A stretch of DNA of 64,000 bases from a plasmid. Position numbers and translations under genes: made by a program. Shown in pieces: positions 30,427 through 44,279 of the stretch. Where the stretch lies: the NCBI RefSeq assembly GCF_054482525.1, contig NZ_JBTHVG010000003.1. One strand, given 5' to 3'. Below the pieces are notes generated by a model. The model saw only the letters and a list, made by a program, of their open reading frames with translations, was not told the DNA's origin and ran no database searches. Every line of letters begins with the position of its first letter. Position 1 is the first letter of the stretch.

Positions 30427-30966
30427 GTGAAAAAAAACGGAAATTTCCTCCGGTATAGTAATTTCACATCAGGAGGCGTCATGAGTAATTCGAATCTTAT
30501 AAGTTCTATAGAGCTAACACGTAAAAATTTACGTGCTCAGATTGAAGGTTTGCGTGTTGAGGCTGAAGATCTCATTACAAAATACTGGATCAAGTGGAAG
30601 GAACGAAACCACCAAGAGATTAACCTTACCCGACATAGCAAAGTTCCAAAGAGGGAGTATCTGGGTTCTTACGCACCAAAAGTTGAGCTAATTGGTAATG
30701 CCAGAAAAGTAACGATCACTTGGCATCAGTTCAGCCCTTATAAAACAAGAGCGCCTAGTCACATGTCAAAACGGGTGCAACCAATGAAAAGTGGAAAATA
30801 TTCTAAGAACTGTTTTGTAAACCATGCCAGCTGGGAATACGAAATGATTTCTGAAACGGAAGCATTGCTGGAGCCTTACAGAGAAATGCTTGAGCTCTAT
30901 CATTCAGCATATATCGAACTTGGACGAAAAATCCGTCAATACTCAAAAACTAAGGTGGCACAATGA
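30427..30966 (+). CDS. Hypothetical protein, first gene of the relaxase operon (possible relaxosome accessory)
   Basis: 179-aa ORF; probable true start at internal MSNSNL. Confidence 0.45.
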   Translation: MKKNGNFLRYSNFTSGGVMSNSNLISSIELTRKNLRAQIEGLRVEAEDLITKYWIKWKERNHQEINLTRHSKVPKREYLGSYAPKVELIGNARKVTITWHQFSPYKTRAPSHMSKRVQPMKSGKYSKNCFVNHASWEYEMISETEALLEPYREMLELYHSAYIELGRKIRQYSKTKVAQ

Positions 30967-31700
30967 CCGACGCAATTATCACGGACAATGAGCGTATTAA
31001 CATTGAACCAAAAGATGTAATGGTAAAAGGTTCAAATAAAAAGCAAGGCGTAAACGCTCAAACTTCTACTCAACGTAGACCAGAGCACCAGGGTATGGCC
31101 AAAGTTATTATTAACCCCGGCACCCCAGATTTTAACCGGTTTTTAACTGCCAGAAATGGAGCAGTCATCAGAGGTTTTGATGATGTGAGTATCGCTATTT
31201 CCTCTCTCTTTAAAACGGTTGATGCAGTTAAACATCCTGACCTTGTTCAGGCTATTCAGGATTGGTTCAACGAGCTGCATGAAGAAAACAATAAGATGAA
31301 AGAAAATCTTGTTGCTTATATTAAGTCAATTGAGTTCGACAAGAATGACTCATTCATGTCATCAACTCAGTTTGTACCTTTCAGTTTTGAACCAGTACAA
31401 CTCAACTTCAATAACCACAACACCATGAGGTTTTACAAGTACATCTTCGAGATGAACCAGCTCATGAACACAATGTATGAGTACAACTCATTGGGTTTAC
31501 TGGCTGTAAGCGACTATCCGGTTATGTCTCACAACATTATAAAGAGTATTAATTTATATGTTGAGAATGTGAAAAAGACTCTGAATGTTTCTCGCCGTAA
31601 GGATGGGCCATACAGTCCAGCAGAGTTCATCACCAAAGTAATGCAATATAAAAGTGTGCAGGCATACATTGCAGCCGAACTGTCAGGCAAACGTCGATAA
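30963..31700 (+). CDS. Hypothetical protein (possible relaxosome accessory)
   Basis: 245 aa; 4-bp overlap with upstream gene. Confidence 0.45.
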   Translation: MTDAIITDNERINIEPKDVMVKGSNKKQGVNAQTSTQRRPEHQGMAKVIINPGTPDFNRFLTARNGAVIRGFDDVSIAISSLFKTVDAVKHPDLVQAIQDWFNELHEENNKMKENLVAYIKSIEFDKNDSFMSSTQFVPFSFEPVQLNFNNHNTMRFYKYIFEMNQLMNTMYEYNSLGLLAVSDYPVMSHNIIKSINLYVENVKKTLNVSRRKDGPYSPAEFITKVMQYKSVQAYIAAELSGKRR

Positions 31701-31703
31701 GGT

Positions 31704-34700
31704 ATGATGATGAATTTCAGGGCGCTGTATTTATGTATTAAACGGATTTTGGGGATATTCTCATCTCAGGAGAATGATGCAACCTCTGTAATGATTGAGG
31801 ATATATCAAGCCTCTCTCCTTTTGCGCAGATTCTAGGAGATCAGAAGTACACTGTTCCTGATCATCCAAATCCAGAAGTCCTGAAATTCATCGAGTATCC
31901 AACTCGTCCGACGGGCATACAGACATTTAATGAACAGTCAATCCTGTCTCTGTATCGGGAAAAGCTGCACTCAATTTCAATGATGTTAGCTATCAGCGAT
32001 AGCGACATCAGGGACGATGCATATACATTTACTAATTTAGTATTAAAGCCCTTGGTTGAATATGTTCGCTGGATACATCTTTTGCCAGCTTCCGAAAATC
32101 ATCATCATAATGGTATTGGTGGGTTACTTTCTCACAGCCTGGAAGTGGCCATACTCTCTTTAAAAAATGCGCATCACTCAGAACTGAGACCAATCGGATA
32201 TCAAGATGAAGAAGTAGTCCGTAGAAAAGTATATCTCTATGCTGCGTTTATCTGTGGTTTAGTCCATGATGCCGGAAAGGTTTACGATCTCGATATTGTA
32301 AGCCTGAATTTAGCTAGTCCGATCATTTGGACGCCAAGCTCACAAAGTCTTCTTGACTGGGCACGTGAAAATGACGTGGTTGAATACGAAATCCACTGGC
32401 GAAAGCGTATTCATAATCAACATAATATCTGGTCCAGCGTTTTCCTTGAGCGAATCCTAAACCCGGTATGTCTTGCATTTTTGGATCGGGTAAATAAAGA
32501 ACGTGTTTATTCAAAAATGATCACCGCCCTAAACGTTTATACTGATGGGAATGACTTTTTGTCTAAATGCGTGAGGACCGCTGATTTCTATTCTACTGGT
32601 ACAGACCTTAATGTTTTACGTGACCCTATCATGGGTCTGCGTTCTAATGATGCAGCAGCAAGGGCCATTAGTACCATCAAGCACAACTTTACCAGTATCA
32701 ATATCAACAATTACAATGCTAAGCCTATGCACATCATTATCGTAAATGGTGAGGTATACCTTAACGAGAACGCATTCCTTGATTTTGTTCTCAATGATTT
32801 CGAATTACATAAATATAACTTCCCTCAGGGAGAGGCTGGTAAGACGGTATTGGTAGAATCCCTAGTTCAACGTGGTTACGTCGAGCCCTATGATGATGAG
32901 CGTGTCGTTCACTACTTCATTCCGGGTATCTATTCGGAAAACGAAATATCAAACATCTTTAGAAATGGGATAGGGAAACTAGAATTCTATAACCTTCTTA
33001 AGCTAAGGTGGATTGGTTTAATCTTTGATTCCTATAAAATCCCTGACTCAGTGCCGGGTCTTTTTAGCGTTAATGCCAATAAAGACTTTATTTACATTGA
33101 CGAGCAAAAAACAGTTACTGAATACAGAAGACCAGTGCCCGGTCGGGACGCTATAACTAAAATTACTGATACTGTTGAGACGGCTGTTCTTAAGGTTAAT
33201 GATTTAGGCCGCTCCACTGCCTCTATTGATGTTGATATACATTCTAAGAAAAATGAAGGCTCATCCGACGATTTTGAGAAGAAAGCCGAAAGTGATAATG
33301 AAATTGATAATGACACGCAGATAGTTAAATCTGAGGGTGAGGAAGCAGCTGATCCTGTCATTCCTGATATAGAAGAAAGTGAAGATGAATCGGCAAAGGA
33401 CACGGAATCCCATGTCCTGGTCAACCAACTTCATGAACTCCTTTTAAGCGCTCCACTTTCCAATGACTATATAGTGTGTGTAGATGCTGTCCCCTACCTC
33501 AACATAGATGCCACTATGGCATTGCTGCCGGGATTAGATGAAAAAGCATTTAGTGAAGAGCCCTATTTCCAACTGACATTCAGAGAAGGCTCTCTCGATG
33601 GAATGTGGATAGTAAGGGACATTGACGATCTGCGTTTAGTCCAGCTCGGCGATAACTGCGCCGGGTTCCAGCTCACCTATCATGAGCCAAGAAGGCCAAC
33701 AACTTTAAAGTCACTTTTCAATACTTCTATGTATCAGGCATTAGTGATTAATGATGAGTCTTCTGTTGAAAACTCTGCCCCACGTCCAAAGCAAACGCTT
33801 GAGCTGCCTCCCCCACGTGTAAATGCAGTCGAAGAACATTCTGGCGACGTGGAATATCATGGAACCGATAGTGCATCCGCGACTGGTCCGCTGAAAACTG
33901 AGGCTGTGGAATATGAACATTATCAACATCTTTTTGAGGAAGAAGATGAAGAGCATGAGATCATTGATTATACCGATTTCACACAGCTTAGTGTTTCTCG
34001 GCCAGAAGTCGGTAGTTGTGCAACAAGCTCTTCGGTCCATAATGAAAAGCTTCTCCCCGAGCCGTCAGAATTACCAGAACTTAACCGAGAACAGAACGCT
34101 GATCCCCAGGGTACGATTGAACGCTCTATGGATGTTTCTGTAGGACAAGAAAACTCAGAACCAGATACTGAGGGTAACTGCCCACCACCAGCTGAAGTTG
34201 TGTATTCCCAGACCGAAGCAGCCGCAACCAGTGTGATGGCAAGTGAAGAGCCCGCCTTACCTCCTGTACTTGAAGAATCAAATGGAGAGCATGCGCCCAC
34301 AGACGCTAAGGGGCATCATCTTTCGCCAGCACTGGCCAGACTGTTCGCCCCAACAGCACCGGTAGAAAAACAAAATCCCAAGCGCAACCGGAATAAATCA
34401 TCGGACAAAGCAGAAGTACAAAAACCAGCATCACCTGTTTCTGGTCACAATCTGAACAGTAAAGTCTTTGCAACTACTGAATCAGACCAAAATGGTGAAT
34501 TCTCGCTTATAAGCGAAGGTGACGTTACAGAGCTTGAATTTGTAGAAATTGCGTCAGTACTGCATCAAATTCTGTCCAAAATGGAGGTGGCGTTTAAAAG
34601 AAAGCGCAAAAACAGATTTATGGTAAGTACTCCTAATACTCTCTATCTGACCCAATCTTGCGTGGAAAAATTTGGGTCGCAGTTAGAGGCTCAAGATCTT

Positions 34701-34856
34701 TTCAATAAGCTTCCTCAGTACCTCGTTAATTCTGGTGCTGTGATCAATACAAAATGCCATGCATTTAACATGCCTACTTTGCTGGCCGCATCAGACCGGG
34801 CGAAAGTGGACATTGAACGAATTATCAATAACCTGAAAGAGGCTGGGAACCTATAA
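31704..34856 (+). CDS. Conjugative relaxase, MOB_H-like (HD-hydrolase-type motif)
   Basis: 1050 aa; ...LLSHSLEVAILSL... and ...LVHDAGKVYDL... His/Asp motifs; followed directly by the coupling protein gene. Confidence 0.6.
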   Translation: MMMNFRALYLCIKRILGIFSSQENDATSVMIEDISSLSPFAQILGDQKYTVPDHPNPEVLKFIEYPTRPTGIQTFNEQSILSLYREKLHSISMMLAISDSDIRDDAYTFTNLVLKPLVEYVRWIHLLPASENHHHNGIGGLLSHSLEVAILSLKNAHHSELRPIGYQDEEVVRRKVYLYAAFICGLVHDAGKVYDLDIVSLNLASPIIWTPSSQSLLDWARENDVVEYEIHWRKRIHNQHNIWSSVFLERILNPVCLAFLDRVNKERVYSKMITALNVYTDGNDFLSKCVRTADFYSTGTDLNVLRDPIMGLRSNDAAARAISTIKHNFTSININNYNAKPMHIIIVNGEVYLNENAFLDFVLNDFELHKYNFPQGEAGKTVLVESLVQRGYVEPYDDERVVHYFIPGIYSENEISNIFRNGIGKLEFYNLLKLRWIGLIFDSYKIPDSVPGLFSVNANKDFIYIDEQKTVTEYRRPVPGRDAITKITDTVETAVLKVNDLGRSTASIDVDIHSKKNEGSSDDFEKKAESDNEIDNDTQIVKSEGEEAADPVIPDIEESEDESAKDTESHVLVNQLHELLLSAPLSNDYIVCVDAVPYLNIDATMALLPGLDEKAFSEEPYFQLTFREGSLDGMWIVRDIDDLRLVQLGDNCAGFQLTYHEPRRPTTLKSLFNTSMYQALVINDESSVENSAPRPKQTLELPPPRVNAVEEHSGDVEYHGTDSASATGPLKTEAVEYEHYQHLFEEEDEEHEIIDYTDFTQLSVSRPEVGSCATSSSVHNEKLLPEPSELPELNREQNADPQGTIERSMDVSVGQENSEPDTEGNCPPPAEVVYSQTEAAATSVMASEEPALPPVLEESNGEHAPTDAKGHHLSPALARLFAPTAPVEKQNPKRNRNKSSDKAEVQKPASPVSGHNLNSKVFATTESDQNGEFSLISEGDVTELEFVEIASVLHQILSKMEVAFKRKRKNRFMVSTPNTLYLTQSCVEKFGSQLEAQDLFNKLPQYLVNSGAVINTKCHAFNMPTLLAASDRAKVDIERIINNLKEAGNL

Positions 34857-36940
34857 TGTCAGATTCGAAGAGGACTAACCTCCATGCACAAGAGAATTTT
34901 TATCGGCCTATTCTTGAGTATCGTAGTGCCTCAATACTTTTGATTTGTTCGGTTTCTATGCTTTATATGGGACTTTCTTCAGACGGACTGGACATCGCCC
35001 CAATAGTTCTGTTCACCTCAATATTGCTTTTTTTGCTGTGCCTTTATCGTTGCAAAACAGCAGCGCCATTCTTGATGGCTCATTGGCGTGTATTCAAGCG
35101 ACATTTCATGTTCGTTAGTCTTGATTCACTGCGTGTAATTAACAAAAGTAACTTTTTCTCCAATGAGCGAAAGTATCGTCAACTGGTTCAGGATTATCAA
35201 AATAAAAATAAGGATATACCCGAGCGAAAGTCCTATTTTTGTGATGGGTTTGAGTGGGGCCCGGAACATGCGGATCGGGCATATCAAATAGCTAACCTCT
35301 CCAGTGATAAACGTGAGATCGAGTTGCCATTCGTCTTCAACCCAATTAAGAGACATTTTGACGCAATGGCTCGTAAGATGGGCGGCAGCAATGCAATTTT
35401 TGCTGTGGAACGTAGGGAACCCATATTTGTAACTGAAGACAATTGGTTTGGTCATACTCTGATAACCGGAAACGTGGGTACCGGGAAAACGGTGCTACAG
35501 CGTTTACTAAGCATTAGCATGCTTCATCTTGGTCATGTTGTTGTTGTCATAGATCCAAAGAACGATGCAGAGTGGCGAGAATCTCTAATGGAAGAGGCTA
35601 AGACCCTCGGTCTTCCTTTCTATAAATTTCATCCTGGCCAGCCAGCATCTTCGGTCTGTATTGATGTCTGCAACACCTATACTAATGTTTCTGACCTAAC
35701 ATCTCGTCTTTTGAGCTTGGTGACAGTTCCCGGTGAGGTTAACCCATTCGTTCAGTATGCCAAGGCTCTCGTTTCCAATGTGATTTCCGGGCTTTCTTAC
35801 ATAGAGAAAAAGCCTTCTATTTATCTGATTCACAAGAACATGAAAAGCCACATGTCTATTGTGAATCTTACAGTCAAGGTAATGGAGTCATGTTACGCGA
35901 GATATTATGGTTACGATGTCTGGACCGAAAAAGTTAAGTACGTCGCTAACGAAACCTTGCCGGTACGTTTCAAGCGTCTCGCTGAATGGTTTACGGCTCA
36001 TTTCATGAATTACGAGGGGTCCGAACAAATAGACTGGTTAGATACTGTTTCCCAGCTTATTGATTACTCAATGTCCGACCCAGAGCATATGGCTAAAATG
36101 ACCGCAGGTATTATGCCTGTTTTCGATATGCTCATTGAAAAACCTTTAAATGAGCTTTTATCTCCTAACCCGAACTCAGTATCATCAAGAGAAATTGTAA
36201 CAAGCGAAGGGATGTTCAGCACTGGCGGGGTGCTATACATTTCGCTTGATGGCCTTTCAAACCCCGATACAGCAGCTGCTATTTCTCAATTAATAATGTC
36301 AGATCTGACCTCCTGTGCCGGTAGTCGCTACAACGCTCAGGATGGTGATATGTCAGCTAATTCCAGGATAAGTATTTTTGTTGATGAGGCACACTCAGCC
36401 ATTAACAACCCTATGATTAACCTTCTGGCGCAGGGTCGTGCAGCGAAAATTGCACTGTTTATTTGCACCCAAACCATCTCCGACTTTATTGCTGCGGCAA
36501 GTGTTGAAACTGCCAATCGAATTACGGGGCTCTGCAACAATTATATAAGCTTGCGAGTCAACGATACTCCTACTCAGACGCTTGTTGTAGAGAACTTTGG
36601 TAAGAGTGCGATAAGCACAAATATGGTCACTTATACGACCGGTTCAGAAACATCTTTGCCGCATAATAACTTCTCAGGTTCAATCTCAGAAAGAAAGCAG
36701 ACAACTTTAGAAGAGAGTATTCCAAAGGATCTCTTGGGTCAGGTCCCTATGTTTCACATAGTTGCCAGGCTTCAAGATGGCAGGAAGGTTGTAGGCCAAA
36801 TCCCTATTGCTGTTGCTGAGAAACAAATGAAGCCAAACACAACTCTGTCGGAAATGCTTTTCAAGAAGGCCGGAAAAGTTACTTTGCGTCAAAATCTCGA
36901 TATCAAAAATCTTAATAAATTTCTAAGGAAGTTTCATTGA
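34856..36940 (+). CDS. Type IV coupling protein (TraD/TraG/VirD4 family ATPase)
   Basis: N-terminal TM; Walker A GNVGTGKT; Walker B FVDEAH. Confidence 0.8.
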   Translation: MSDSKRTNLHAQENFYRPILEYRSASILLICSVSMLYMGLSSDGLDIAPIVLFTSILLFLLCLYRCKTAAPFLMAHWRVFKRHFMFVSLDSLRVINKSNFFSNERKYRQLVQDYQNKNKDIPERKSYFCDGFEWGPEHADRAYQIANLSSDKREIELPFVFNPIKRHFDAMARKMGGSNAIFAVERREPIFVTEDNWFGHTLITGNVGTGKTVLQRLLSISMLHLGHVVVVIDPKNDAEWRESLMEEAKTLGLPFYKFHPGQPASSVCIDVCNTYTNVSDLTSRLLSLVTVPGEVNPFVQYAKALVSNVISGLSYIEKKPSIYLIHKNMKSHMSIVNLTVKVMESCYARYYGYDVWTEKVKYVANETLPVRFKRLAEWFTAHFMNYEGSEQIDWLDTVSQLIDYSMSDPEHMAKMTAGIMPVFDMLIEKPLNELLSPNPNSVSSREIVTSEGMFSTGGVLYISLDGLSNPDTAAAISQLIMSDLTSCAGSRYNAQDGDMSANSRISIFVDEAHSAINNPMINLLAQGRAAKIALFICTQTISDFIAAASVETANRITGLCNNYISLRVNDTPTQTLVVENFGKSAISTNMVTYTTGSETSLPHNNFSGSISERKQTTLEESIPKDLLGQVPMFHIVARLQDGRKVVGQIPIAVAEKQMKPNTTLSEMLFKKAGKVTLRQNLDIKNLNKFLRKFH
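35145..35155. promoter_or_regulatory. AAAGT(A/T)ACTTT palindrome copy (intragenic)
   Basis: cAAAAGTAACTTTTTCtc; inside the coupling protein gene. Confidence 0.4.
36875..36885. promoter_or_regulatory. AAAGT(A/T)ACTTT palindrome copy (intragenic)
   Basis: gAAAAGTTACTTTGCGtc; 3' end of the coupling protein gene. Confidence 0.4.
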
Positions 36941-38049
36941 TGGATGAAAAAATTGTCCTGACGCGCCAGCAAATTTTAAGCTCTGCACTAAAAGTCAGCA
37001 AATGTCGCTCGCTCGTAAAAAGGCGCTTTCAGTCTTTGGGTTTAAAGTACGCAGATTCTCAGGAAGTTCGAGATCGGCTAACTAAGATAGAAAAAAACGC
37101 GTTTCATCATTTGGGAAAATTTTGTCAGAGCAACGATATCGATTCCCTATTCTCCATGGCAAATACCCTGTCTGAGCTTTTCCTTTTAAAGGGAGAGTTG
37201 ATCACGACTGATCCCTTTGGGGACCGTGAAACCAGCTACTGGTCGGTACCACAAGGTTCATGCCATGAATGGATTCAATCGCTGACCACCAGCGAAGGTC
37301 CTGAACGTAAATTCGTTAGTTTCCGTATTTCTTTCGATAACAATGACGAACGGTGTGATCTTGTAAAGAAGAATGCCCGTATGCTTGGTTGTTATCTTTT
37401 GCCTTATTTCGTCGATTTGACACGCACGGTGGGCGCATTCATTAATTTGCCAGGTAGTGTCTCTTTTAAACAAGTACAGCGCATCAAACCCCAGATTCAT
37501 CCAGAAACAACACATAGTCATATAGTTACTATTGAGGACTCTCCCTTTCTTTCTCGGTTAAAATTTAAAATCATTACTGCCATAGATCGGCTTCCTGACC
37601 CTAATGGCCTTTATACAAACACCTTTAACAGCATTATTGACCGTGCACTGCTGACTCATCTCAAAACCGAACAGGAAAAAATAGATAGTCCAAGAGTCTG
37701 CAAAAATGTGATTTCGGCTTTTGCCGACTCAACTCTTTCTCTGCCGGTGTTTAACATCGGCCTAAACGAGCAGTACAGATACTGGACGCCGTGGGGCATC
37801 AACTTTATAGAATTTTCCCGCCAGGCCGCAAAAGTAAGGACCGCTGTATTTGTTCCTGATGTGGGACAGATCGAGTGGAAAAGCGCAGAGCATAAAGAAC
37901 TGGCGGAGTTAAGCCTCATCGACCAAATCATACCTAAACAGTACCACTGGCTCCTGGGTATCCCGACGATGTGGCGTAACAACTATTGCAATCACGATCA
38001 GAGGCTAGCTCTTTTTCGTGAATGGAGGGAAAGCAATGGCTGCGGATAA
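36937..38049 (+). CDS. Hypothetical protein
   Basis: 370 aa; translationally coupled (ATGA overlap) to the coupling protein gene. Confidence 0.45.
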   Translation: MMDEKIVLTRQQILSSALKVSKCRSLVKRRFQSLGLKYADSQEVRDRLTKIEKNAFHHLGKFCQSNDIDSLFSMANTLSELFLLKGELITTDPFGDRETSYWSVPQGSCHEWIQSLTTSEGPERKFVSFRISFDNNDERCDLVKKNARMLGCYLLPYFVDLTRTVGAFINLPGSVSFKQVQRIKPQIHPETTHSHIVTIEDSPFLSRLKFKIITAIDRLPDPNGLYTNTFNSIIDRALLTHLKTEQEKIDSPRVCKNVISAFADSTLSLPVFNIGLNEQYRYWTPWGINFIEFSRQAAKVRTAVFVPDVGQIEWKSAEHKELAELSLIDQIIPKQYHWLLGIPTMWRNNYCNHDQRLALFREWRESNGCG

Positions 38050-38698
38050 TACAAGCAGAGCAGCAGTGCTCAGAACAATGCTTTTTTTTGGCATGGTCAT
38101 TTATTTTGGTTACAGCCTGGCTTTCCAGAATACTGAGGAGCTCAAATATCAGATTACTCAGGAGGTTAATGCAAGCCGGTCCATCATATCAAATGACCGT
38201 TGGAAGTCTGTTATTGCAAATAGTGAAGCGACTTTAAATTGGTTGGTACATGACTATAAGTTAATTGACTATCTGAATACTATTCTGATCCCTGACACCA
38301 AAAAACCAGCCAGAGGTATTAACATTGTTGCTGAAAAATTTACCTCTATTAATTACACTATGGCCAAAAACATACCCCTCTTACTTTATCAGTCCATTTT
38401 CCGGTGGAACTTAATCCTGGGGTGGCTAATCGTTTTTCTGCCCTATCTATTTGCCATGCTAGCAGATGGAATGTACCAGTGGAAATTGAAGAGGTACGTA
38501 TTTGGTAAGGTTACAGTTCAGTTTTATCGTATTTGGTTTCGAGCATTTTGGGTGATCAGTGCTTTAACGATGGTCTACCTGGTCATGCCGAATATGTCAC
38601 TATTTAACAATATCGCTCAACTTTTCCCACCAGTCGCTTTATTGATACTGGGAATTGCATTGAATCGCTTGTGGTCTAACTTTCAAAAACTCATGTAA
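38018..38698 (+). CDS. Multi-pass membrane protein, hypothetical
   Basis: 226 aa, several hydrophobic helices. Confidence 0.45.
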   Translation: MNGGKAMAADNTSRAAVLRTMLFFGMVIYFGYSLAFQNTEELKYQITQEVNASRSIISNDRWKSVIANSEATLNWLVHDYKLIDYLNTILIPDTKKPARGINIVAEKFTSINYTMAKNIPLLLYQSIFRWNLILGWLIVFLPYLFAMLADGMYQWKLKRYVFGKVTVQFYRIWFRAFWVISALTMVYLVMPNMSLFNNIAQLFPPVALLILGIALNRLWSNFQKLM

Positions 38699-38708
38699 AG
38701 GTGGTCAG

Positions 38709-39890
38709 ATGTTAAGCAGTAAAAAAAGGAAGTCCCCTACAAATATCAAAGAATCGCTCAATGATAACGCTGACCGTTTTTATAAGATGTTTCGCATTCA
38801 TACCACGGCAAAAGTTGCTATGTCGCTAATTGCCATGACCGCTGTAGGGTTTTCTTTCTACAATCTTTACGAACAATGGCAGGACGCTGAAGGGAAGAAA
38901 GACCATATAGCTGTAATACGGATTTCTGGCGAGATGGGTACCGGCTCGGAAACGGGCGATGGAACAGTGATCGCAACAGCTCTTGCCAAAGCTTACAATA
39001 ATCCCCATGCCAAAGCAGTTATTATCGAGGCAGAGTCAGGTGGTGGTGGTCCCTCTGACGCCATCATTATTTACCGCCAGATAAACGCGCTTAAAAACCA
39101 CCAGCCACAGATTGAACGCGTATCAGATGCCGGTTGCTCTCTTTCATCTGTAGCCGCTGACAAGAGTAACAAAACCGGGAGCACAGAACGTGGCGATGAA
39201 GCACGGTCGAAGCAAAACTCCCTCGAAGTACTCTCCAGCGGTACCGGTCGTTTTTTCTCTGATATCGCAGACTCATATAAACCAATCATCGTTAGTGTGA
39301 AAGGCATATGCGCATCCGCATGCTATTACGCGGTATCGCCCGCTGATGCAATTTATGCCGACAGTAATGCCCTGATCGGTTCTATCGGTGTGCGTATGGA
39401 CCACTGGAATCTGTCAGAGATCATGAGCACAGTAGGCGTCAAGAATGAGCCCCTTACGGCCGGTGAGTTCAAAGATGCTCTTGACCCCTTCCACCCATTG
39501 TCCGATTCAACGAGGGAGTTCATGCAGAAGGAGATCCTGAACACGATGCATGAAAAATTTATAACTGATGTTGAACTTGGACGGGGTAAAAAGCTTCTCT
39601 CGCGTCATGATGCCGATGCTGTTTCTCTCTATTCAGGCCGTGTATGGCCAACACCTCAGGCAGTTAAGTACGGCCTGGTGGATGGAGATCTTACGTCAGT
39701 AGAGATCCGTACACGTCTTTCAAAAATGTACTCCACTGACACGTTCAAAAACTACAATGAGCCTCATCGTAATCTCCGTTCTGCACTCGGCATGCTGATG
39801 AGCCTGTCTTCAAATATTGAGAGCCTTACCGGTACCACTACCCGCTTGGTAGAATCTGTTAATGCCACCAGCTACCCCTCTGTGAGGTAA
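38709..39890 (+). CDS. S49-family (SppA-like, ClpP/crotonase fold) peptidase with N-terminal membrane anchor
   Basis: ...AVIIEAESGGGGPSDA... and ...SACYYAVSPADAIYADSNALIGSIGV... resemble SppA. Confidence 0.6.
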   Translation: MLSSKKRKSPTNIKESLNDNADRFYKMFRIHTTAKVAMSLIAMTAVGFSFYNLYEQWQDAEGKKDHIAVIRISGEMGTGSETGDGTVIATALAKAYNNPHAKAVIIEAESGGGGPSDAIIIYRQINALKNHQPQIERVSDAGCSLSSVAADKSNKTGSTERGDEARSKQNSLEVLSSGTGRFFSDIADSYKPIIVSVKGICASACYYAVSPADAIYADSNALIGSIGVRMDHWNLSEIMSTVGVKNEPLTAGEFKDALDPFHPLSDSTREFMQKEILNTMHEKFITDVELGRGKKLLSRHDADAVSLYSGRVWPTPQAVKYGLVDGDLTSVEIRTRLSKMYSTDTFKNYNEPHRNLRSALGMLMSLSSNIESLTGTTTRLVESVNATSYPSVR

Positions 39891-39891
39891 C

Positions 39892-40623
39892 ATGGATGCT
39901 TTCAATCTGCTGTGGAGCATTACGGGGGTAGCTTTCATTATCCTTATTTTCGTCGTGTTGCTGTGTCTGTTGGGTTTTATGACCTCTGCCATAGCGGAAC
40001 GGCGGACTGCAAAGGCAATTGAATCTGGGCTTCCTGAAGAAGCTCAGGGGCTACTTAGTGATCTCACCTTTCAGTTGTCGGCTCATAGCACTACTCAGGT
40101 TGATCACATTCTCGTAGCCCCACATGGTATATACGTCATAGAGCAGAAAAACTACGTAGGCAAGCTCTACGGTACTCTGGAGGAAAGCCACTGGCGGAAA
40201 TGGACTCAGTCCCGAACCCTCAAGTTGCAGAACCCGTTTAAGCAAAACCAGGGGCACATCAGGGCTATTCAGTCTGCTCTTAAGGCTAGAGAACTGGAAT
40301 GTATCAATGTCGTCATCATAAACGGACGTTGTAAGTTTGATGGCATCAAGCCGGAATGGTTATGTATGGGGATGGACGATTTTATCCATAAAGTCAAACA
40401 ACGACGAGGGCTACGGTTGTTCACACCGGAGTCTGTTCAGCACATCTGTTCGGTGTTGAAGTCAACAAGGAAGTCGCCAGGGCTCTATACGGACCTTACT
40501 CATATTCACAACATAACGACAAAGTACAAAGCCCCGATGAAATTCGAGCAACGAGTAACATACATTCTGCTCAACTTTATCCATTATCTGTGGGCAAGTC
40601 TGTTCACTAAGCAGAAGCCTTAG
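39892..40623 (+). CDS. NERD (nuclease-related domain) protein with N-terminal TM helix
   Basis: ...VDHILVAPHGIYVIEQKNYVGKLYG... then ...QNPFKQNQGHIRAIQ...; 1-bp gap to the S49 gene. Confidence 0.6.
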   Translation: MDAFNLLWSITGVAFIILIFVVLLCLLGFMTSAIAERRTAKAIESGLPEEAQGLLSDLTFQLSAHSTTQVDHILVAPHGIYVIEQKNYVGKLYGTLEESHWRKWTQSRTLKLQNPFKQNQGHIRAIQSALKARELECINVVIINGRCKFDGIKPEWLCMGMDDFIHKVKQRRGLRLFTPESVQHICSVLKSTRKSPGLYTDLTHIHNITTKYKAPMKFEQRVTYILLNFIHYLWASLFTKQKP

Positions 40624-40657
40624 CGCTCTATCATTGGTAAGGCTGTAAAATGTCTGC

Positions 40658-40697
40658 AAAAGGCCCCATCGGTAAATTGTTGGGGCTTTTTCTTTGC
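40658..40697 (+). terminator. Rho-independent terminator ending the relaxase operon
   Basis: aaaaggcccca...tggggcttttt hairpin plus T-run. Confidence 0.6.
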
Positions 40698-40909: not shown

Positions 40910-41272
40910 TCAGGGGTTTAACGCCGGAATATTTTGCCAGGCCTCCTGCAAGGTCTGCAAGACTTCTACAAGTGATAGTGACGGCCACAGGACTGTTTCC
41001 GTCATTATCACTCCAGGTGGCTCGCACTCTACTGGTACCAGAATTAAAACAACACGAGTTCCTTTTACCTGGTAGGCAAGGTTTACTGCCGGTTGGCGGT
41101 AGGAGGCCAGTACACCCTCACCATATTGAGCAGGGTTACTTGCCCAGTTCCGCACCATTGCATACACCTGAGGCATATACCGACTATCCAGATCCCCTTT
41201 GGGCCGTCTGAACGGCACGATTTCTTCTGAGCGGTAGGTGGTCGTTGTTGTATTGGTTGTCATCTTTGTCAC
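40910..41272 (-). CDS. Hypothetical protein
   Basis: 120-aa ORF in minus-strand array. Confidence 0.35.
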   Translation of the reverse strand: MTKMTTNTTTTTYRSEEIVPFRRPKGDLDSRYMPQVYAMVRNWASNPAQYGEGVLASYRQPAVNLAYQVKGTRVVLILVPVECEPPGVIMTETVLWPSLSLVEVLQTLQEAWQNIPALNP

Positions 41273-41328
41273 CTCCCCTGTTCGTCCATTTAGAGTTTTA
41301 AGCTGCTTTACACATCACACTCAACTGA

Positions 41329-41613
41329 TTATTTAAGCTGGTCATCGTCTCTGGCCAGCATAGCCCAACCATTCGACTGGTTTTCGCGGGAGTAAGGATT
41401 CATTTCAAAATAACTATCTACCGCGTCGCTGTCCGCAACAGAACTGTTGTTAGCTCTCTTTGAACCCTGAACCACTACAGCATCAACCTCTGCGGCTTTC
41501 CCGTTGCGCTGTACCAGGATTTTAACCGTCTTGGGCTTACGTCTTGCGAGCAGTTTGTTGGCGATAAAAAGCACAACAATCCAGGCCAAAAGCACGTATA
41601 AAAATTTATTCAT
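41329..41613 (-). CDS. Small membrane-anchored protein, hypothetical
   Basis: N-terminal TM; palindrome copy 164 bp upstream. Confidence 0.4.
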   Translation of the reverse strand: MNKFLYVLLAWIVVLFIANKLLARRKPKTVKILVQRNGKAAEVDAVVVQGSKRANNSSVADSDAVDSYFEMNPYSRENQSNGWAMLARDDDQLK

Positions 41614-41776
41614 AATGCCCTCCTTTGTATGTGATTATTATACCTGCTTCCATTGCAGGCCAAACAGGTTCGGTGTATGAAAAATAGACTTCTCTCCGGC
41701 GTATAGCAATCTACTTACTGATCTGTTTTCGTATCAAACTGTATGGCATAACCGAGGGGCGTACGTGGTGAGTCAG

Positions 41777-41787
41777 AAAGTTACTTT
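41777..41787. promoter_or_regulatory. AAAGT(A/T)ACTTT palindrome copy
   Basis: aGAAAGTTACTTTTCCgt; upstream of gene 41329..41613. Confidence 0.5.
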
Positions 41788-41969
41788 TCCGTAATAGTTA
41801 ATTTCAGATCCTTCTTCCAGTTACGCTTCAGTATAAAACCGATACCCTCTAATTCAGCATCCTTCACGTTTAATACGCTTCACTTTAAGGCAGGGCTTTT
41901 CGGTTGATATGAATTCTTTTTCCGGTTGCTGGACATGGGTTTCATCCTGATAGTTAAAATTGCAGGCTA

Positions 41970-42272
41970 TCAGTCACCACCACCACCTCCTCCTCCTCCT
42001 CCTCCACCGCCACCATCACAACCACCAGCTATGCTATTTTCACCATTACAATCACCTCCGAGGGGGTTCAAATGGCTGCTCCCCTGTAGATGGTGTCCTT
42101 GCCAGATCGAACCCGAACCAGCGCCTCCTGAGCGTCTTTGCTTGCCCTGAGGCAATTGTGCAGGCTCACCAGCACCGGCGGTCCCAAAAATGTCCCGGGC
42201 AATTTTATAAAGAAGGTAAAAAGGTACGCCCAGCATCATAAAAAAGATTCCTGAAAATATTACACGTTCCAT
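41970..42272 (-). CDS. Small membrane protein with C-terminal poly-glycine tract
   Basis: N-terminal TM then Gly-rich tail ending G13-D; tract encoded by the CCN repeat. Confidence 0.35.
   Translation of the reverse strand: MERVIFSGIFFMMLGVPFYLLYKIARDIFGTAGAGEPAQLPQGKQRRSGGAGSGSIWQGHHLQGSSHLNPLGGDCNGENSIAGGCDGGGGGGGGGGGGGD
41976..42030. repeat. Trinucleotide (CCN)n tract (~14 units; CCA/CCT/CCG)
   Basis: ccaccaccaccacctcctcctcctcctcctccaccgccacca read directly. Confidence 0.8.
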
Positions 42273-42704
42273 TGATGATCTCCTGTCTTGTGAGAGACCA
42301 GTTATATCAGGGTGATTCAGTATTTCCGTTTAGAAAAGAGTACTAATTTGGCCCTGTTCGATCTTAATTTGCCATCCGGGAAAAAGTCATAGGGATAGGC
42401 CTGCCAGAGTCAATAACTTCCAGTGATCTGGAGGAGACCCCGGCTCTCTGAGCCCTCATGGATGGTACGGCTTTACCCCCTGTAAACAGATTCACGTTCC
42501 GCAGGACAAACATCGACTACTGACGTCTCATATTTGCTGACGCTAATCCGACGTCTCATTGCCGTCTGCTTGTTTTCTTTAAAGGGTGTATTAGACGAAT
42601 ATCAAATCGGAATGGTAGGGGATGTGTGGGCACCATGCCCGGCCCTCTTTGAGCATCTGAGAGATTGGAGACCTAGCCGGGTAAGATAGCTACTTTCTTA
42701 CGGG

Positions 42705-43073
42705 TTACCCTTCAAATCCAAAGACGAAACGGACGCTGCCGTTCTCCACGTGGAGACGCTTTACTTCTTCGACAAATTCCTGGATCACCTCTCCGGCGTT
42801 ATCGGGTGGTATGGCTGACAAAATTTCTTCCGAAGTCAGCCATGAGTATGAATGTTCACCGAATAAATCATCATCTTCGGACGGTATATCATCAGGTAAT
42901 CCGCGTAATGCGTGGATAAAAACTGCTGATGTGCTCGCCCTTTCACGATCTACATCAAATCCGAGCCAGGCAAAGTGGAGATATGATCGGTCCCCTTTAT
43001 AATTGCTTGATAAATTAATCCATTTACCAGGCTTTTCTTCCCTTTGAAATCGCCAGCAGATATCAACGCCCAT
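42705..43073 (-). CDS. Hypothetical protein
   Basis: 122-aa ORF. Confidence 0.35.
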   Translation of the reverse strand: MGVDICWRFQREEKPGKWINLSSNYKGDRSYLHFAWLGFDVDRERASTSAVFIHALRGLPDDIPSEDDDLFGEHSYSWLTSEEILSAIPPDNAGEVIQEFVEEVKRLHVENGSVRFVFGFEG

Positions 43074-43237
43074 TAAGAAACTCCATTACTATCGTTCGTA
43101 TGAGATAACTATCATTTCAGAATACTATGACTTCTTCCCGTATAGAACTAATCGCTCACGCCAACTGGGCGAAGCCAACCGGTTCCGCCACTTCGCTCAT
43201 TGGTTTTTAGGCGTAAGCACTGAAGCCAGTCTCCATG

Positions 43238-43780
43238 CTAACTGGCGAGCCTGCGAAAGTCAGACTCGTTGTTATAAAGCGGCATATCGTAAGCGGTGTC
43301 TGAAATGAACATGCGGATCTGCTCAAGCGTCATGCCACAATGAAAACGGTTTACGCTCACATTGGCCCGGGGGAAGTCAGCACAAAACGCATTCAAAACA
43401 TTTTCATGGACAATGCCAATGTTGATCAACGCAGCTGGCCCGTTGTCACGGAAGGATACGACACGGAATCCCCCATACCAGCCTGAATGGGAGAAAAATG
43501 AAAATGCGCCGGATGCCAGACCATTAGACAGGTCATAGCGCAATTTCCCGCACAGAGACTGGCTGTCTTTGCTGTACACGCGATTAATGAAAATACCGGG
43601 ACCAACTTCTACCGGCTGCTTGTTGCTTGCTAAACACGGAAAGCCCACCAGCGAAACCTCCCTTTCTCCTGACCAGTTTACCTGATACCCGGCAGTGAGA
43701 AAGTCCGTCAGTTCTACGCCAGAAAGAGCATTAATGGCCGCGATATCGGTAGTCAAAATATTTACGTTTTTCATATTCAT
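43238..43780 (-). CDS. Hypothetical protein
   Basis: 180-aa ORF. Confidence 0.4.
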   Translation of the reverse strand: MNMKNVNILTTDIAAINALSGVELTDFLTAGYQVNWSGEREVSLVGFPCLASNKQPVEVGPGIFINRVYSKDSQSLCGKLRYDLSNGLASGAFSFFSHSGWYGGFRVVSFRDNGPAALINIGIVHENVLNAFCADFPRANVSVNRFHCGMTLEQIRMFISDTAYDMPLYNNESDFRRLAS

Positions 43781-43841
43781 CTCATCTTTATTCTAAAGTG
43801 CGTTTTTTGTCTATCAGCCCGAGGATTGAAAATTTGAATAT

Positions 43842-44279
43842 TTAATGTGACAGATAAATACCTGTCACTTTTTCAAAAACAGCCTGTAATTGAATATCGA
43901 GAGAGTTCATTTTAAAATCCACCAGCTCAGCTTTATTATCGCAAACCAAATAAAAATAGGAGTCAAATGCGTCTGTATCTTCATCTTTAAAAATACGGAA
44001 GGAATTAATTTTATCATGCCCTTCAAATTCGGCATGAATACCATAGCGAACCGAGCCGTCATCGAACTGAACAACCCGTCGTACAGAATTAATCCGGACG
44101 TACTGTTTTAAGGCCCTCGCGAAATCGGCATTTAACGCCAACGCTCGTAAGATTGAATCAGCGGTTTCATTCTGCTTTTTACGATCGTATTCAAATATCC
44201 CACAGCCGGTGTTACGAAAGACCGGCTGAAGAGCATTAACCAGGTTGAAGGAATCCACGTTTCTGTCGTTTCTGTACAT
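43842..44279 (-). CDS. Hypothetical protein
   Basis: 145-aa ORF. Confidence 0.4.
   Translation of the reverse strand: MYRNDRNVDSFNLVNALQPVFRNTGCGIFEYDRKKQNETADSILRALALNADFARALKQYVRINSVRRVVQFDDGSVRYGIHAEFEGHDKINSFRIFKDEDTDAFDSYFYLVCDNKAELVDFKMNSLDIQLQAVFEKVTGIYLSH

What the first reader, a model, noticed from the sequence alone, without database searches (positions are those of the whole stretch)
38709..40697. S49 peptidase + NERD nuclease-domain pair fused to the end of the relaxase operon
Two membrane-anchored proteins, an SppA-like S49 peptidase and a NERD-domain protein, are separated by 1 bp and close the relaxase/coupling-protein operon just before its terminator. Neither activity is part of canonical relaxosome or T4SS machinery as I know it. 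A protease-nuclease membrane pair is the kind of architecture seen in abortive-infection, entry-exclusion or defence modules; pairing and operon position suggest a function coupled to conjugative DNA processing. Whether it is conserved in related plasmids is unknown to me.
Basis: partly seen in the sequence, partly recalled or inferred. Interest (0 to 1): 0.6.

Follow-up and report, generated by a model that had tools for sequence, protein, structure and literature searches.

The report
Known IncHI operon-end peptidase and nuclease genes
The two genes are real and intact, but they are the already catalogued, function-unknown last genes of the IncHI plasmid relaxase operon (R0116 and R0115 in plasmid R27), and the evidence argues against a coupled protease-nuclease defence module.

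Summary
Window 38709-39890 encodes an S49 (SppA-type) peptidase with an intact Ser203/Lys255 dyad. Window 39892-40623, 1 bp later, encodes a membrane-anchored NERD protein with an intact D71/E84/K86 nuclease motif. A terminator-like hairpin follows at 40656-40697.

The window is an IncHI2 plasmid, and about 960 database plasmids match at 99% or more. The same order (mobI, x, relaxase, coupling protein, x, TraJ/DtrJ, S49, NERD) occurs in R27 and other IncHI1 plasmids, in IncHI1B Klebsiella plasmids, and in two metagenomic lineages.

In R27 the pair is R0116 ("peptidase") and R0115. Both are listed in the H operon and are derepressed together with traI, traG and traJ.

The "coupled pair" reading is weak:
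- S49 follows DtrJ without any NERD gene in more distant MOBH operons.
- In IncC plasmids S49 sits with DsbA under the conjugation activator AcaCD.
- Anchored NERD proteins occur alone in chromosomes.
- The two catalytic domains are predicted to lie on opposite sides of the membrane.
- No defence-system model matches.

Most likely S49 is a periplasmic housekeeping protease for the transfer apparatus. NERD is probably a lineage-specific membrane-tethered DNase acting at the transfer gate. Function is untested here. Interest is modest.

The parts
30481..30966 (+). mobI (traH of R27, R0122), first gene of the operon, next to oriT
   Evidence: RefSeq annotation of the identical plasmid sequence; ORF.
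30963..31700 (+). 245-aa hypothetical protein (R0121 homologue)
   Evidence: It is 68% identical to the IncHI1 homologue.
31710..34856 (+). MOBH relaxase (mobH; traI of R27, R0120)
34856..36940 (+). type IV coupling protein (annotated traD; traG of R27, R0119)
36940..38049 (+). 369-aa hypothetical protein (R0118 homologue); no family match
38036..38698 (+). TraJ (DUF4400 / Pfam DtrJ-like PF14348), a polytopic inner-membrane protein
   Evidence: Annotation; hydrophobic segments. TraJ is equated with DUF4400 and is essential in Rts1.
38709..39890 (+). S49 (SppA-type) serine peptidase, R0116 homologue. Probable N-in anchor at residues 34-54, catalytic Ser203 and Lys255, poorly conserved insert at residues ~128-188
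   Evidence: Pfam. NCBIfam SppA_dom, below its cut-off. Alignment to SppA structures. Invariant residues in 22 sequences. AlphaFold model plus Foldseek to B. subtilis SppA, TM 0.84-0.86.
39892..40623 (+). membrane-anchored NERD protein, R0115 homologue. TM helix at residues 12-30 (N-out), cytoplasmic PD-(D/E)xK core with D71, E84 and K86, hydrophobic C-terminal helix 218-239
40656..40697 (+). terminator-like hairpin plus U-tract that closes the operon
   Evidence: Sequence. Fold -20.9 kcal/mol, z -2.8. Missed by the simple scan.

Best explanation
These are the last two genes of the IncHI 'H operon' (mobI, x, relaxase, coupling protein, x, TraJ, S49, NERD). I read them as two accessory proteins that are made together but act on opposite faces of the inner membrane.

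Shown:
- Both are intact genes under purifying selection.
- Both are co-transcribed and co-derepressed with the DNA-transfer genes in R27.
- S49 keeps the SppA Ser/Lys dyad and the SppA fold.
- NERD keeps the D...ExK motif and a restriction-endonuclease fold.

Inferred for S49: it is anchored N-in with its protease domain in the periplasm, as in Bacillus subtilis SppA. It is an old companion of TraJ/DtrJ in one branch of MOBH transfer operons. It most likely clears signal or leader peptides, or misassembled exported Tra proteins and pilin, when the transfer apparatus is switched on. In other MOBH elements the gene slot after DtrJ holds DsbA/DsbC-type folding factors, and in IncC plasmids S49 is co-transcribed with DsbA under the conjugation activator. 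Like those factors, S49 is probably backed up by host enzymes (SppA, SohB), so it would be dispensable in standard matings.

Inferred for NERD: it is anchored N-out with the nuclease domain held against the cytoplasmic face. It was added to the operon only in the IncHI-like clade. It most likely cuts DNA at the membrane beside the coupling protein and TraJ. Whether it trims failed transfer intermediates or attacks incoming DNA is open.

I do not think the protease activates the nuclease.
For: Genes and domains.

Catalytic residues:
- S49 Ser203 aligns to S147 (B. subtilis) and S409 (E. coli). Lys255 aligns to K199 and K209.
- S203, K255, G112 and G113 are invariant in 22 homologues down to 29% identity.
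- NERD D71, E84 and K86 are invariant in 22 homologues.

Topology: S49 has a net +5 charge before the hydrophobic segment. NERD has ERRTAK after its TM helix. The S. aureus TM-NERD protein SmdA is predicted to have the same N-out topology.

Operon and co-regulation in R27.

Synteny:
- DtrJ-S49-NERD in IncHI1, IncHI2, IncHI1B and two further lineages.
- DtrJ-S49 without NERD in three more distant MOBH elements.
- DtrJ followed by DsbA in a Pseudomonas MOBH element; traJ followed within two genes by dsbC in Rts1.
- IncC vcrx015 (S49) and vcrx016 (DsbA) lie downstream of an AcaCD-dependent start site. Expression goes 0 to 270 and 0 to 1262 when AcaCD is supplied.

Precedent for host redundancy: plasmid thioredoxin-fold proteins of F and R27 matter only in dsbC-null hosts.

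Constraint: S49 is as conserved as the relaxase, and NERD is the least conserved gene of the operon. Natural IS insertions truncate NERD in plasmids still typed as conjugative.
Against: - There are no functional data for either protein.
- The claim that R0115 and R0116 mutants of R27 still transfer rests on my memory of the Lawley 2002 abstract (9 of 14 Tra1 ORFs essential) plus counting ORFs. The paper could not be read here.
- The S49 anchor is only marginally hydrophobic in the IncHI clade, and topology is predicted, not measured.
- The strict DtrJ-S49 adjacency could mean a specific substrate rather than general housekeeping.
- The 1-bp gap or 4-bp overlap between S49 and NERD is kept in five lineages. 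That is what one expects for proteins made in fixed ratio, so a physical complex is not excluded.
- In wild-type R27, R0115-R0118 are not thermoregulated while R0121 and R0122 are, so part of their expression may be independent of the transfer promoter.
Confidence: 0.45

Rival explanations
1. The pair is a two-component defence, abortive-infection or DNA-level exclusion module. The nuclease destroys incoming phage or plasmid DNA at the membrane, and the protease senses or regulates.
For: - NERD domains form the N-termini of defence proteins PglW (BREX), MAD6 and MkoA.
- The NERD model resembles defence effector nucleases such as Can2, Card1, NucC and Shedu SduA.
- The pair sits on a mobile element, and the tight S49-NERD coupling is conserved in five lineages.
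Against: - No PADLOC system or full-length model matches. The hits cover only about 80-140 residues of proteins 1400-1600 residues long.
- S49 occurs without NERD in distant MOBH operons and with DsbA in IncC.
- Related anchored NERD proteins are solitary chromosomal genes among housekeeping genes.
- The pair is expressed with the transfer genes.
- R27 already has a dedicated exclusion gene elsewhere: eexB is listed in the Z operon. That EexA/EexB account for exclusion is from my own knowledge.
- The catalytic domains are predicted on opposite sides of the membrane.
Confidence: 0.15
2. S49 is a dedicated maturation protease for one transfer protein, for example the H-pilin precursor, TraJ or the coupling protein. 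NERD is an unrelated passenger.
For: - S49 sits directly after DtrJ in at least eight MOBH lineages, and in two of them directly before the pilin/traL-E-K-B genes.
- The catalytic dyad is invariant.
- Transfer systems are known to use dedicated peptidases: the TraF-like and LepB-like enzymes of Rts1.
Against: - R27 Tra1 mutagenesis reportedly found only traH, traI, traG and traJ essential on this side of oriT (memory of the abstract; not verifiable here).
- SXT and Rts1 have traI-traD-traJ without an adjacent S49. IncC plasmids keep S49 in a different operon.
- The closest structure is a general signal-peptide peptidase.
Confidence: 0.15
3. NERD is a non-catalytic membrane scaffold or DNA tether, as proposed for S. 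aureus SmdA, rather than a nuclease.
For: SmdA is a TM-anchored NERD protein with a cell-division role and no shown nuclease activity. According to that paper, NERD biochemistry had never been tested.
Against: SmdA lacks several of the most conserved NERD residues. The IncHI protein keeps T67, D71, E84, K86, Q118 and H122, all invariant across the family, and models with a canonical nuclease core.
Confidence: 0.08

Closest known systems
R27 (IncHI1) loci R0116 'peptidase' and R0115, last genes of the H operon
   Same: Orthologues: 73% and 63% protein identity, measured against the IncHI1 plasmid pEQ1. R27 itself has the identical gene order. They are listed as H-operon genes and derepressed with traI, traG and traJ. 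They are used as IncHI core loci.
   Different: Only sequence divergence. Synonymous sites are saturated. No function is assigned in either plasmid.
Bacillus subtilis signal peptide peptidase SppA (PDB 3RST, 4KWB)
   Same: Single-domain S49 protease with an N-terminal anchor and a Ser/Lys dyad. Foldseek E about 1e-17, TM-score 0.84-0.86 relative to the target.
   Different: About 21% identity. The window protein scores below the NCBIfam SppA cut-offs (121 bits against 155). It is plasmid-borne in a DNA-transfer operon. It has a disordered, clade-specific insert of 55-75 residues and a C-terminal extension of about 50 residues.
IncC/IncA plasmid S49 peptidase (vcrx015 of pVCR94), co-transcribed with DsbA (vcrx016)
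   Same: An S49 peptidase on a MOBH/MPF_F conjugative plasmid with the same invariant residues. It lies in an operon driven by the conjugation master activator AcaCD.
   Different: 26-29% identity. It is not next to traJ and is followed by DsbA rather than NERD. Its induction was not flagged as significant in that data set.
Widespread solitary N-terminally anchored NERD proteins (200-260 aa), and S. aureus SmdA
   Same: Same architecture (TM helix then NERD core) and the same invariant residues. 945 cluster representatives match at E < 1e-10. SmdA has the same predicted topology.
   Different: The solitary genes lie in unrelated chromosomal contexts without S49. Some end in a topoisomerase-type zinc ribbon, whereas the IncHI clade ends in a hydrophobic helix. 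SmdA lacks key NERD residues and acts in cell division.
NERD modules of defence proteins PglW (BREX), MAD6 and MkoA (Mokosh)
   Same: Domain-level similarity of the NERD core.
   Different: Those are proteins of 600-1600 residues carrying kinase or helicase domains within multi-gene systems. None of the partner genes or domains is present here.

Membership tests
Peptidase family S49 (SppA/SohB type) | Profile match to the S49 domain | tested here: met
   PF01343 E 5.8e-28. TIGR00706 SppA_dom E 4.3e-35 but 121 bits, below the 155-bit equivalog cut-off. So it is an S49 family member, not an SppA equivalog.
Peptidase family S49 (SppA/SohB type) | Ser nucleophile and Lys general base | tested here: met
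   Ser203 and Lys255 align to S147/K199 of B. subtilis SppA and to S409/K209 of E. coli SppA. Both are invariant in 22 homologues.
Peptidase family S49 (SppA/SohB type) | SppA (ClpP/crotonase-like) fold | tested here: met
   AlphaFold core pLDDT 80-95. Best PDB matches are 4KWB and 3RST, then E. coli SppA, then ClpP.
Peptidase family S49 (SppA/SohB type) | N-terminal membrane anchor with the protease domain outside the cytoplasm | tested here: inconclusive
   Net +5 charge before the segment, then a hydrophobic stretch at 34-54 with hydropathy of only 1.4-1.6. Distant homologues score 2.0-2.4 at the same position. No experimental topology.
Peptidase family S49 (SppA/SohB type) | Signal-peptide or membrane-proximal peptide cleavage activity | not testable with these tools
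   Needs biochemistry.
NERD / PD-(D/E)xK nuclease superfamily | Profile match to NERD | tested here: met
   PF08378 E 1.9e-21, model positions 3-109 of 111.
NERD / PD-(D/E)xK nuclease superfamily | Acidic and lysine catalytic motif D...(D/E)xK | tested here: met
   D71, E84 and K86 are present and invariant in 22 family members.
NERD / PD-(D/E)xK nuclease superfamily | Restriction-endonuclease-like fold | tested here: met
NERD / PD-(D/E)xK nuclease superfamily | Nuclease activity | not testable with these tools
   NERD biochemistry is essentially untested in the literature found.
Catalogued anti-phage defence system (PADLOC) | Full-length match of the proteins to system components, with the partner genes nearby | tested here: not met
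   S49, orf370 and DtrJ: no hits. NERD: only partial hits to the N-terminal NERD part of PglW (E 1.9e-6) and MkoA (E 1.5e-5). No BREX or Mokosh genes are among the neighbours.
IncHI H operon (MOBH DNA-transfer operon) | Same strand, overlapping or very short gaps from mobI onward, one terminator at the end | tested here: met
IncHI H operon (MOBH DNA-transfer operon) | Co-regulation with the transfer genes | tested here: met
   Published R27 arrays, derepressed versus wild type at 25 C: R0115 5.6-fold, R0116 4.7-fold, traJ 7.3-fold, R0118 8.6-fold, traG 9.2-fold, traI 11-fold. R0114 was not induced. This is evidence from the IncHI1 orthologues, not from this plasmid.
IncHI H operon (MOBH DNA-transfer operon) | Required for transfer | not tested
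   Lawley et al. 2002 is not held. From memory of its abstract, 9 of 14 Tra1 ORFs are essential. Tra1 is R0115-R0128, which is 14 ORFs. The named essential genes do not include R0115 or R0116.
Obligate S49-NERD two-gene module | The two genes co-occur wherever either is found | tested here: not met
   S49 without NERD: L011, L013/L014, L017, IncC and Vibrio plasmids. NERD without S49: L008, L009, L104-L106.

The most novel reading that the evidence does not exclude
S49 and NERD form a trans-membrane sensor-effector pair specific to the IncHI clade. The periplasmic protease would respond to events at the mating junction or pilus (for example attack by a pilus-specific phage, or a failed mating). 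It would control the membrane-tethered nuclease, for instance by clipping its short periplasmic N-terminus or anchor. The result would be DNA-level exclusion or abortive defence wired into the conjugation operon. The conserved translational coupling in five lineages does not exclude this.
Probability: 0.08. Interest if true: 0.7.

Novelty: already known. Interest (0 to 1): 0.28.

Why it matters
IncHI plasmids carry mcr-1, NDM and typhoid multidrug-resistance genes, so any backbone gene that modulates their transfer has practical interest.

This analysis adds a clearer picture of the anatomy. The S49 peptidase is an ancient companion of TraJ/DtrJ in one branch of MOBH transfer operons. It occupies the same slot that DsbA/DsbC-type envelope factors occupy in other MOBH elements. 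The NERD nuclease is a later addition specific to the IncHI-like clade.

It also gives a concrete reason why earlier knockouts may have shown nothing, namely host SppA/SohB redundancy, and a simple experiment to test that.

It does not reveal a new kind of system. The genes, their domains and their operon membership are already in databases and papers.

Tried and rejected
1. Species-representative genome scan with the S49 alignment. 77 of the 80 best loci were chromosomal SppA-type genes with no MOBH neighbour. It yielded only one extra DtrJ-S49 example (L017).

2. A parallel in IncC plasmids.
- The 173-aa TM protein four genes upstream of the IncC S49 has a D...DxK motif, and its homologues carry PF12705 PDDEXK_1.
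- However, it shows no BLASTP or Pfam similarity to NERD. hhalign aligns only the motif, at 0.3% probability.
- In pVCR94 it (vcrx011) lies upstream of the AcaCD-dependent start site and is essentially unexpressed.
- I rejected it as evidence for a conserved nuclease-plus-S49 partnership.

3. The key R27 mutagenesis papers (PMC134963, PMC145343) are not held. Searches for S49/NERD/conjugative, IncHI/signal peptide peptidase, and R0115/R0116 found nothing directly relevant.

4. dN/dS could not be computed because dS is saturated between IncHI1 and IncHI2. I used protein identity relative to the other operon genes instead.

5. PDB sequence search for NERD found nothing. Fold search was needed.

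6. PHROGs links S49 to phage head-maturation proteases, which belong to the same S49 family. I rejected a phage origin because of the membrane anchor, the plasmid operon context, and SppA being the best structural match.

7. A 509-aa DtrJ-S49 fusion (P0174) and a chimeric S49-tail/NERD protein (P0009) each rest on a handful of member sequences (1 and 6) seen on a single contig. I treated them as probable frameshifts, not as fusion evidence for a functional link.
Full report
**What is in the window**

ORFs 38709-39890 (393 aa) and 39892-40623 (243 aa) lie on the + strand, 1 bp apart, each with a plausible ribosome-binding site. They follow, without real gaps:
- mobI (30481-30966)
- a 245-aa ORF
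- the MOBH relaxase (31710-34856)
- the coupling protein (34856-36940)
- a 369-aa ORF
- the DUF4400/DtrJ-like protein TraJ (38036-38698)

. After the NERD stop codon comes AAAAGGCCCCA...TGGGGCTTTT followed by TCTTTG at 40656-40697. It folds at -20.9 kcal/mol, z = -2.8. The simple terminator scan did not list it. The next genes are on the opposite strand.

**Where the window comes from**

The 4.4-kb stretch matches 980 PLSDB plasmids, 978 of them at 99% or more. These are about 250 kb, IncHI2, MOBH and MPF_F, from Escherichia, Salmonella, Enterobacter and Klebsiella. RefSeq already names the two products 'S49 family peptidase' and 'nuclease-related domain-containing protein'.

**The S49 protein**

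- Pfam PF01343 matches at E 5.8e-28.
- NCBIfam SppA models match, but below their equivalog cut-offs.
- Ser203 (CASAC) and Lys255 (GEFKD) align to the catalytic pairs of solved SppA structures: S147/K199 in B. subtilis (K199 is alanine in the crystallised mutant) and S409/K209 in E. coli.
- In a 22-sequence alignment reaching 29% identity, S203, K255 and the G112-G113 pair are invariant.
- The AlphaFold model has a confident core. Its best PDB matches are B. subtilis SppA (TM-score 0.84-0.86 relative to the target), then E. coli SppA, then ClpP.
- The N-terminus carries a net +5 charge before a hydrophobic stretch at residues 34-54. That stretch is only marginally hydrophobic in the IncHI clade but clearly so in distant homologues. 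I infer an N-in anchor and a periplasmic protease domain, as in B. subtilis SppA.
- The IncHI clade has a poorly conserved insert of 55-75 residues (query ~128-188), partly disordered in the model.

**The NERD protein**

- Pfam PF08378 matches at E 1.9e-21.
- Residues 12-30 form a strongly hydrophobic helix followed by ERRTAK. This points to an N-out anchor with the domain in the cytoplasm, the same topology predicted for the S. aureus TM-NERD protein SmdA.
- A full-database HMMER search gave 945 cluster representatives at E < 1e-10. Many are 200-260-aa proteins aligned over residues ~10-212.
- Across 22 of them, T67, D71, I83, E84, K86, G90, W101, P115, Q118 and H122 are invariant.
- The protein therefore looks catalytically competent. 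NERD biochemistry itself is essentially unstudied.

**Conservation and what is already known**

The gene order mobI, x, mobH, traD, x, DUF4400, S49, NERD is found in:
- IncHI1 plasmid pEQ1 and R27 itself
- IncHI1B/FIB Klebsiella plasmids (S49 49%, NERD 32-35%)
- two further lineages known only from metagenomes (L007, L010)

The S49-NERD junction is 1 bp, 1 bp, 2 bp, 10 bp, or a 4-bp overlap. In PLSDB both genes show the same 268 records in the 60-80% identity band and about 960 at 99% or more.

Against IncHI1, synonymous sites are saturated while S49 keeps 73% identity and NERD 63%. That brackets the relaxase (68%) and the two hypothetical ORFs (66-68%).

In R27 the genes are R0116 ('peptidase') and R0115. 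A transcriptome paper lists both in the H operon. In the htdA-derepressed plasmid at 25 C they rise 4.7-fold and 5.6-fold, alongside traJ (7.3), R0118 (8.6), traG (9.2) and traI (11), while R0114 does not. A comparative-genomics preprint uses the R0115, R0116 and R0118 homologues as Tra1 core loci of all IncHI plasmids.

From memory of the Lawley 2002 abstract, 9 of the 14 Tra1 ORFs are essential. Tra1 is R0115-R0128, and the essential genes on this side of oriT are traH, traI, traG and traJ. R0115 and R0116 are therefore probably dispensable. I could not read that paper.

Natural IS insertions truncate NERD in a few IncHI2 plasmids that are still typed as conjugative.

**Is it a coupled pair?**

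The wider synteny says no.

S49 homologues at 30-39% identity sit directly after DtrJ in MobI-x-TraI_2-T4CP-x-DtrJ operons with no NERD gene:
- Motilimonas eburnea
- a metagenomic element, where a 113-aa ORF and then traL-E-K-B follow
- Vibrio hepatarius, where a pilin-like gene and traL-E-K-B follow

.

In IncC plasmids and a Vibrio IncA/C-like plasmid, S49 is followed by DsbA. In pVCR94 these are vcrx015 and vcrx016, downstream of an AcaCD box and start site. Expression goes from 0 to 270 and from 0 to 1262 when AcaCD is supplied, although the vcrx015 change was not flagged as significant.

In a Pseudomonas MOBH element DtrJ is followed by DsbA. In Rts1, dsbC lies two ORFs after traJ.

Conversely, anchored NERD proteins at about 30% identity are solitary genes in unrelated chromosomal settings.

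PADLOC has no model for either protein beyond partial NERD-domain hits to PglW and MkoA. The two catalytic domains are predicted on opposite sides of the membrane.

**Most likely mechanism**

S49 is best read as a periplasm-facing envelope housekeeping protease recruited long ago to the DNA-transfer operon. It is analogous in position and regulation to the plasmid DsbA/DsbC factors. Those factors are known to matter only when the host enzyme is missing. By analogy, host SppA and SohB could mask an S49 phenotype.

NERD is a later, IncHI-clade addition. It is a nuclease tethered to the cytoplasmic face of the membrane and made in step with S49, TraJ and the coupling protein. I favour action on DNA at the transfer gate, but its substrate and purpose are inferred, not shown.

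The conserved translational coupling leaves room for a physical S49-NERD complex. I give the sensor-effector reading about 8%.

**Verdict**

The feature is a known, annotated, conserved but functionally uncharacterised part of the IncHI backbone, made of members of known protein families. Interest is modest. The useful outputs are the evolutionary anatomy (S49 is old, NERD is an add-on) and a specific redundancy hypothesis to test.

Noticed in passing
L005 5110-5631 (IncC pM214_AC2); L004 6296-6817; L095 3924-4472; L097 9001-9477: MOBH plasmids of the IncA/C type carry a small N-terminally hydrophobic protein with a D...DxK motif four genes upstream of S49-DsbA. Its homologues hit Pfam PDDEXK_1. 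A relative lies 2.5 kb upstream of TraI_2-T4CP-x-DtrJ-DsbA in a Pseudomonas element. In pVCR94 (vcrx011) it is upstream of the AcaCD start site and essentially unexpressed.
   Followed up: partly
window 41975-42027, inside the 100-aa ORF 41970-42272 on the - strand: A trinucleotide repeat (CAC, 17.7 copies, 84% matches) encodes a run of about 13 glycines at the C-terminus of an annotated hypothetical protein (WP_071447784.1). It could be prone to slippage.
   Followed up: no
L099 4199-6615; L101 3493-5049; L100 1637-3637: Some natural IncHI2 plasmids carry IS insertions here. ISEc23 sits in the last codons of NERD, ISApl1 truncates NERD at about residue 166 (pSCE516-1), and ISVsa5 splits traJ (p418-mcr).
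   Followed up: partly
R27 loci R0115-R0122 (L102 3140-13150): In published wild-type R27 arrays, R0121 and R0122 are 8-12-fold higher at 25 C than at 37 C. R0115-R0120 change less than 1.6-fold, and R0115-R0118 have higher basal signal than traI and traG. This suggests an internal promoter or differential mRNA stability within the H operon.
   Followed up: no
window 38709-39890, protein residues ~128-188: The IncHI-clade S49 peptidases have a variable, low-complexity insert of 55-75 residues. Residues 132-155 have pLDDT below 50. The insert is absent from the distant MOBH and IncC S49 proteins and from SppA.
   Followed up: partly
window 40910-44279, - strand: A convergent block of small hypothetical genes follows the operon. 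In related plasmids it continues to a Hok-type toxin gene. The block is conserved in IncHI1, IncHI2 and L010.
   Followed up: no
window 6001-10000: GC content rises to about 0.60, against 0.36-0.47 for the transfer-region backbone. This is probably acquired cargo DNA.
   Followed up: no
L104 4462-6633, L105, L106: One solitary anchored NERD gene sits divergently next to a Band_7 (SPFH) gene plus a 158-aa ORF, and beside an Endonuclease_NS gene. The arrangement is repeated in three metagenomic contigs.
   Followed up: no
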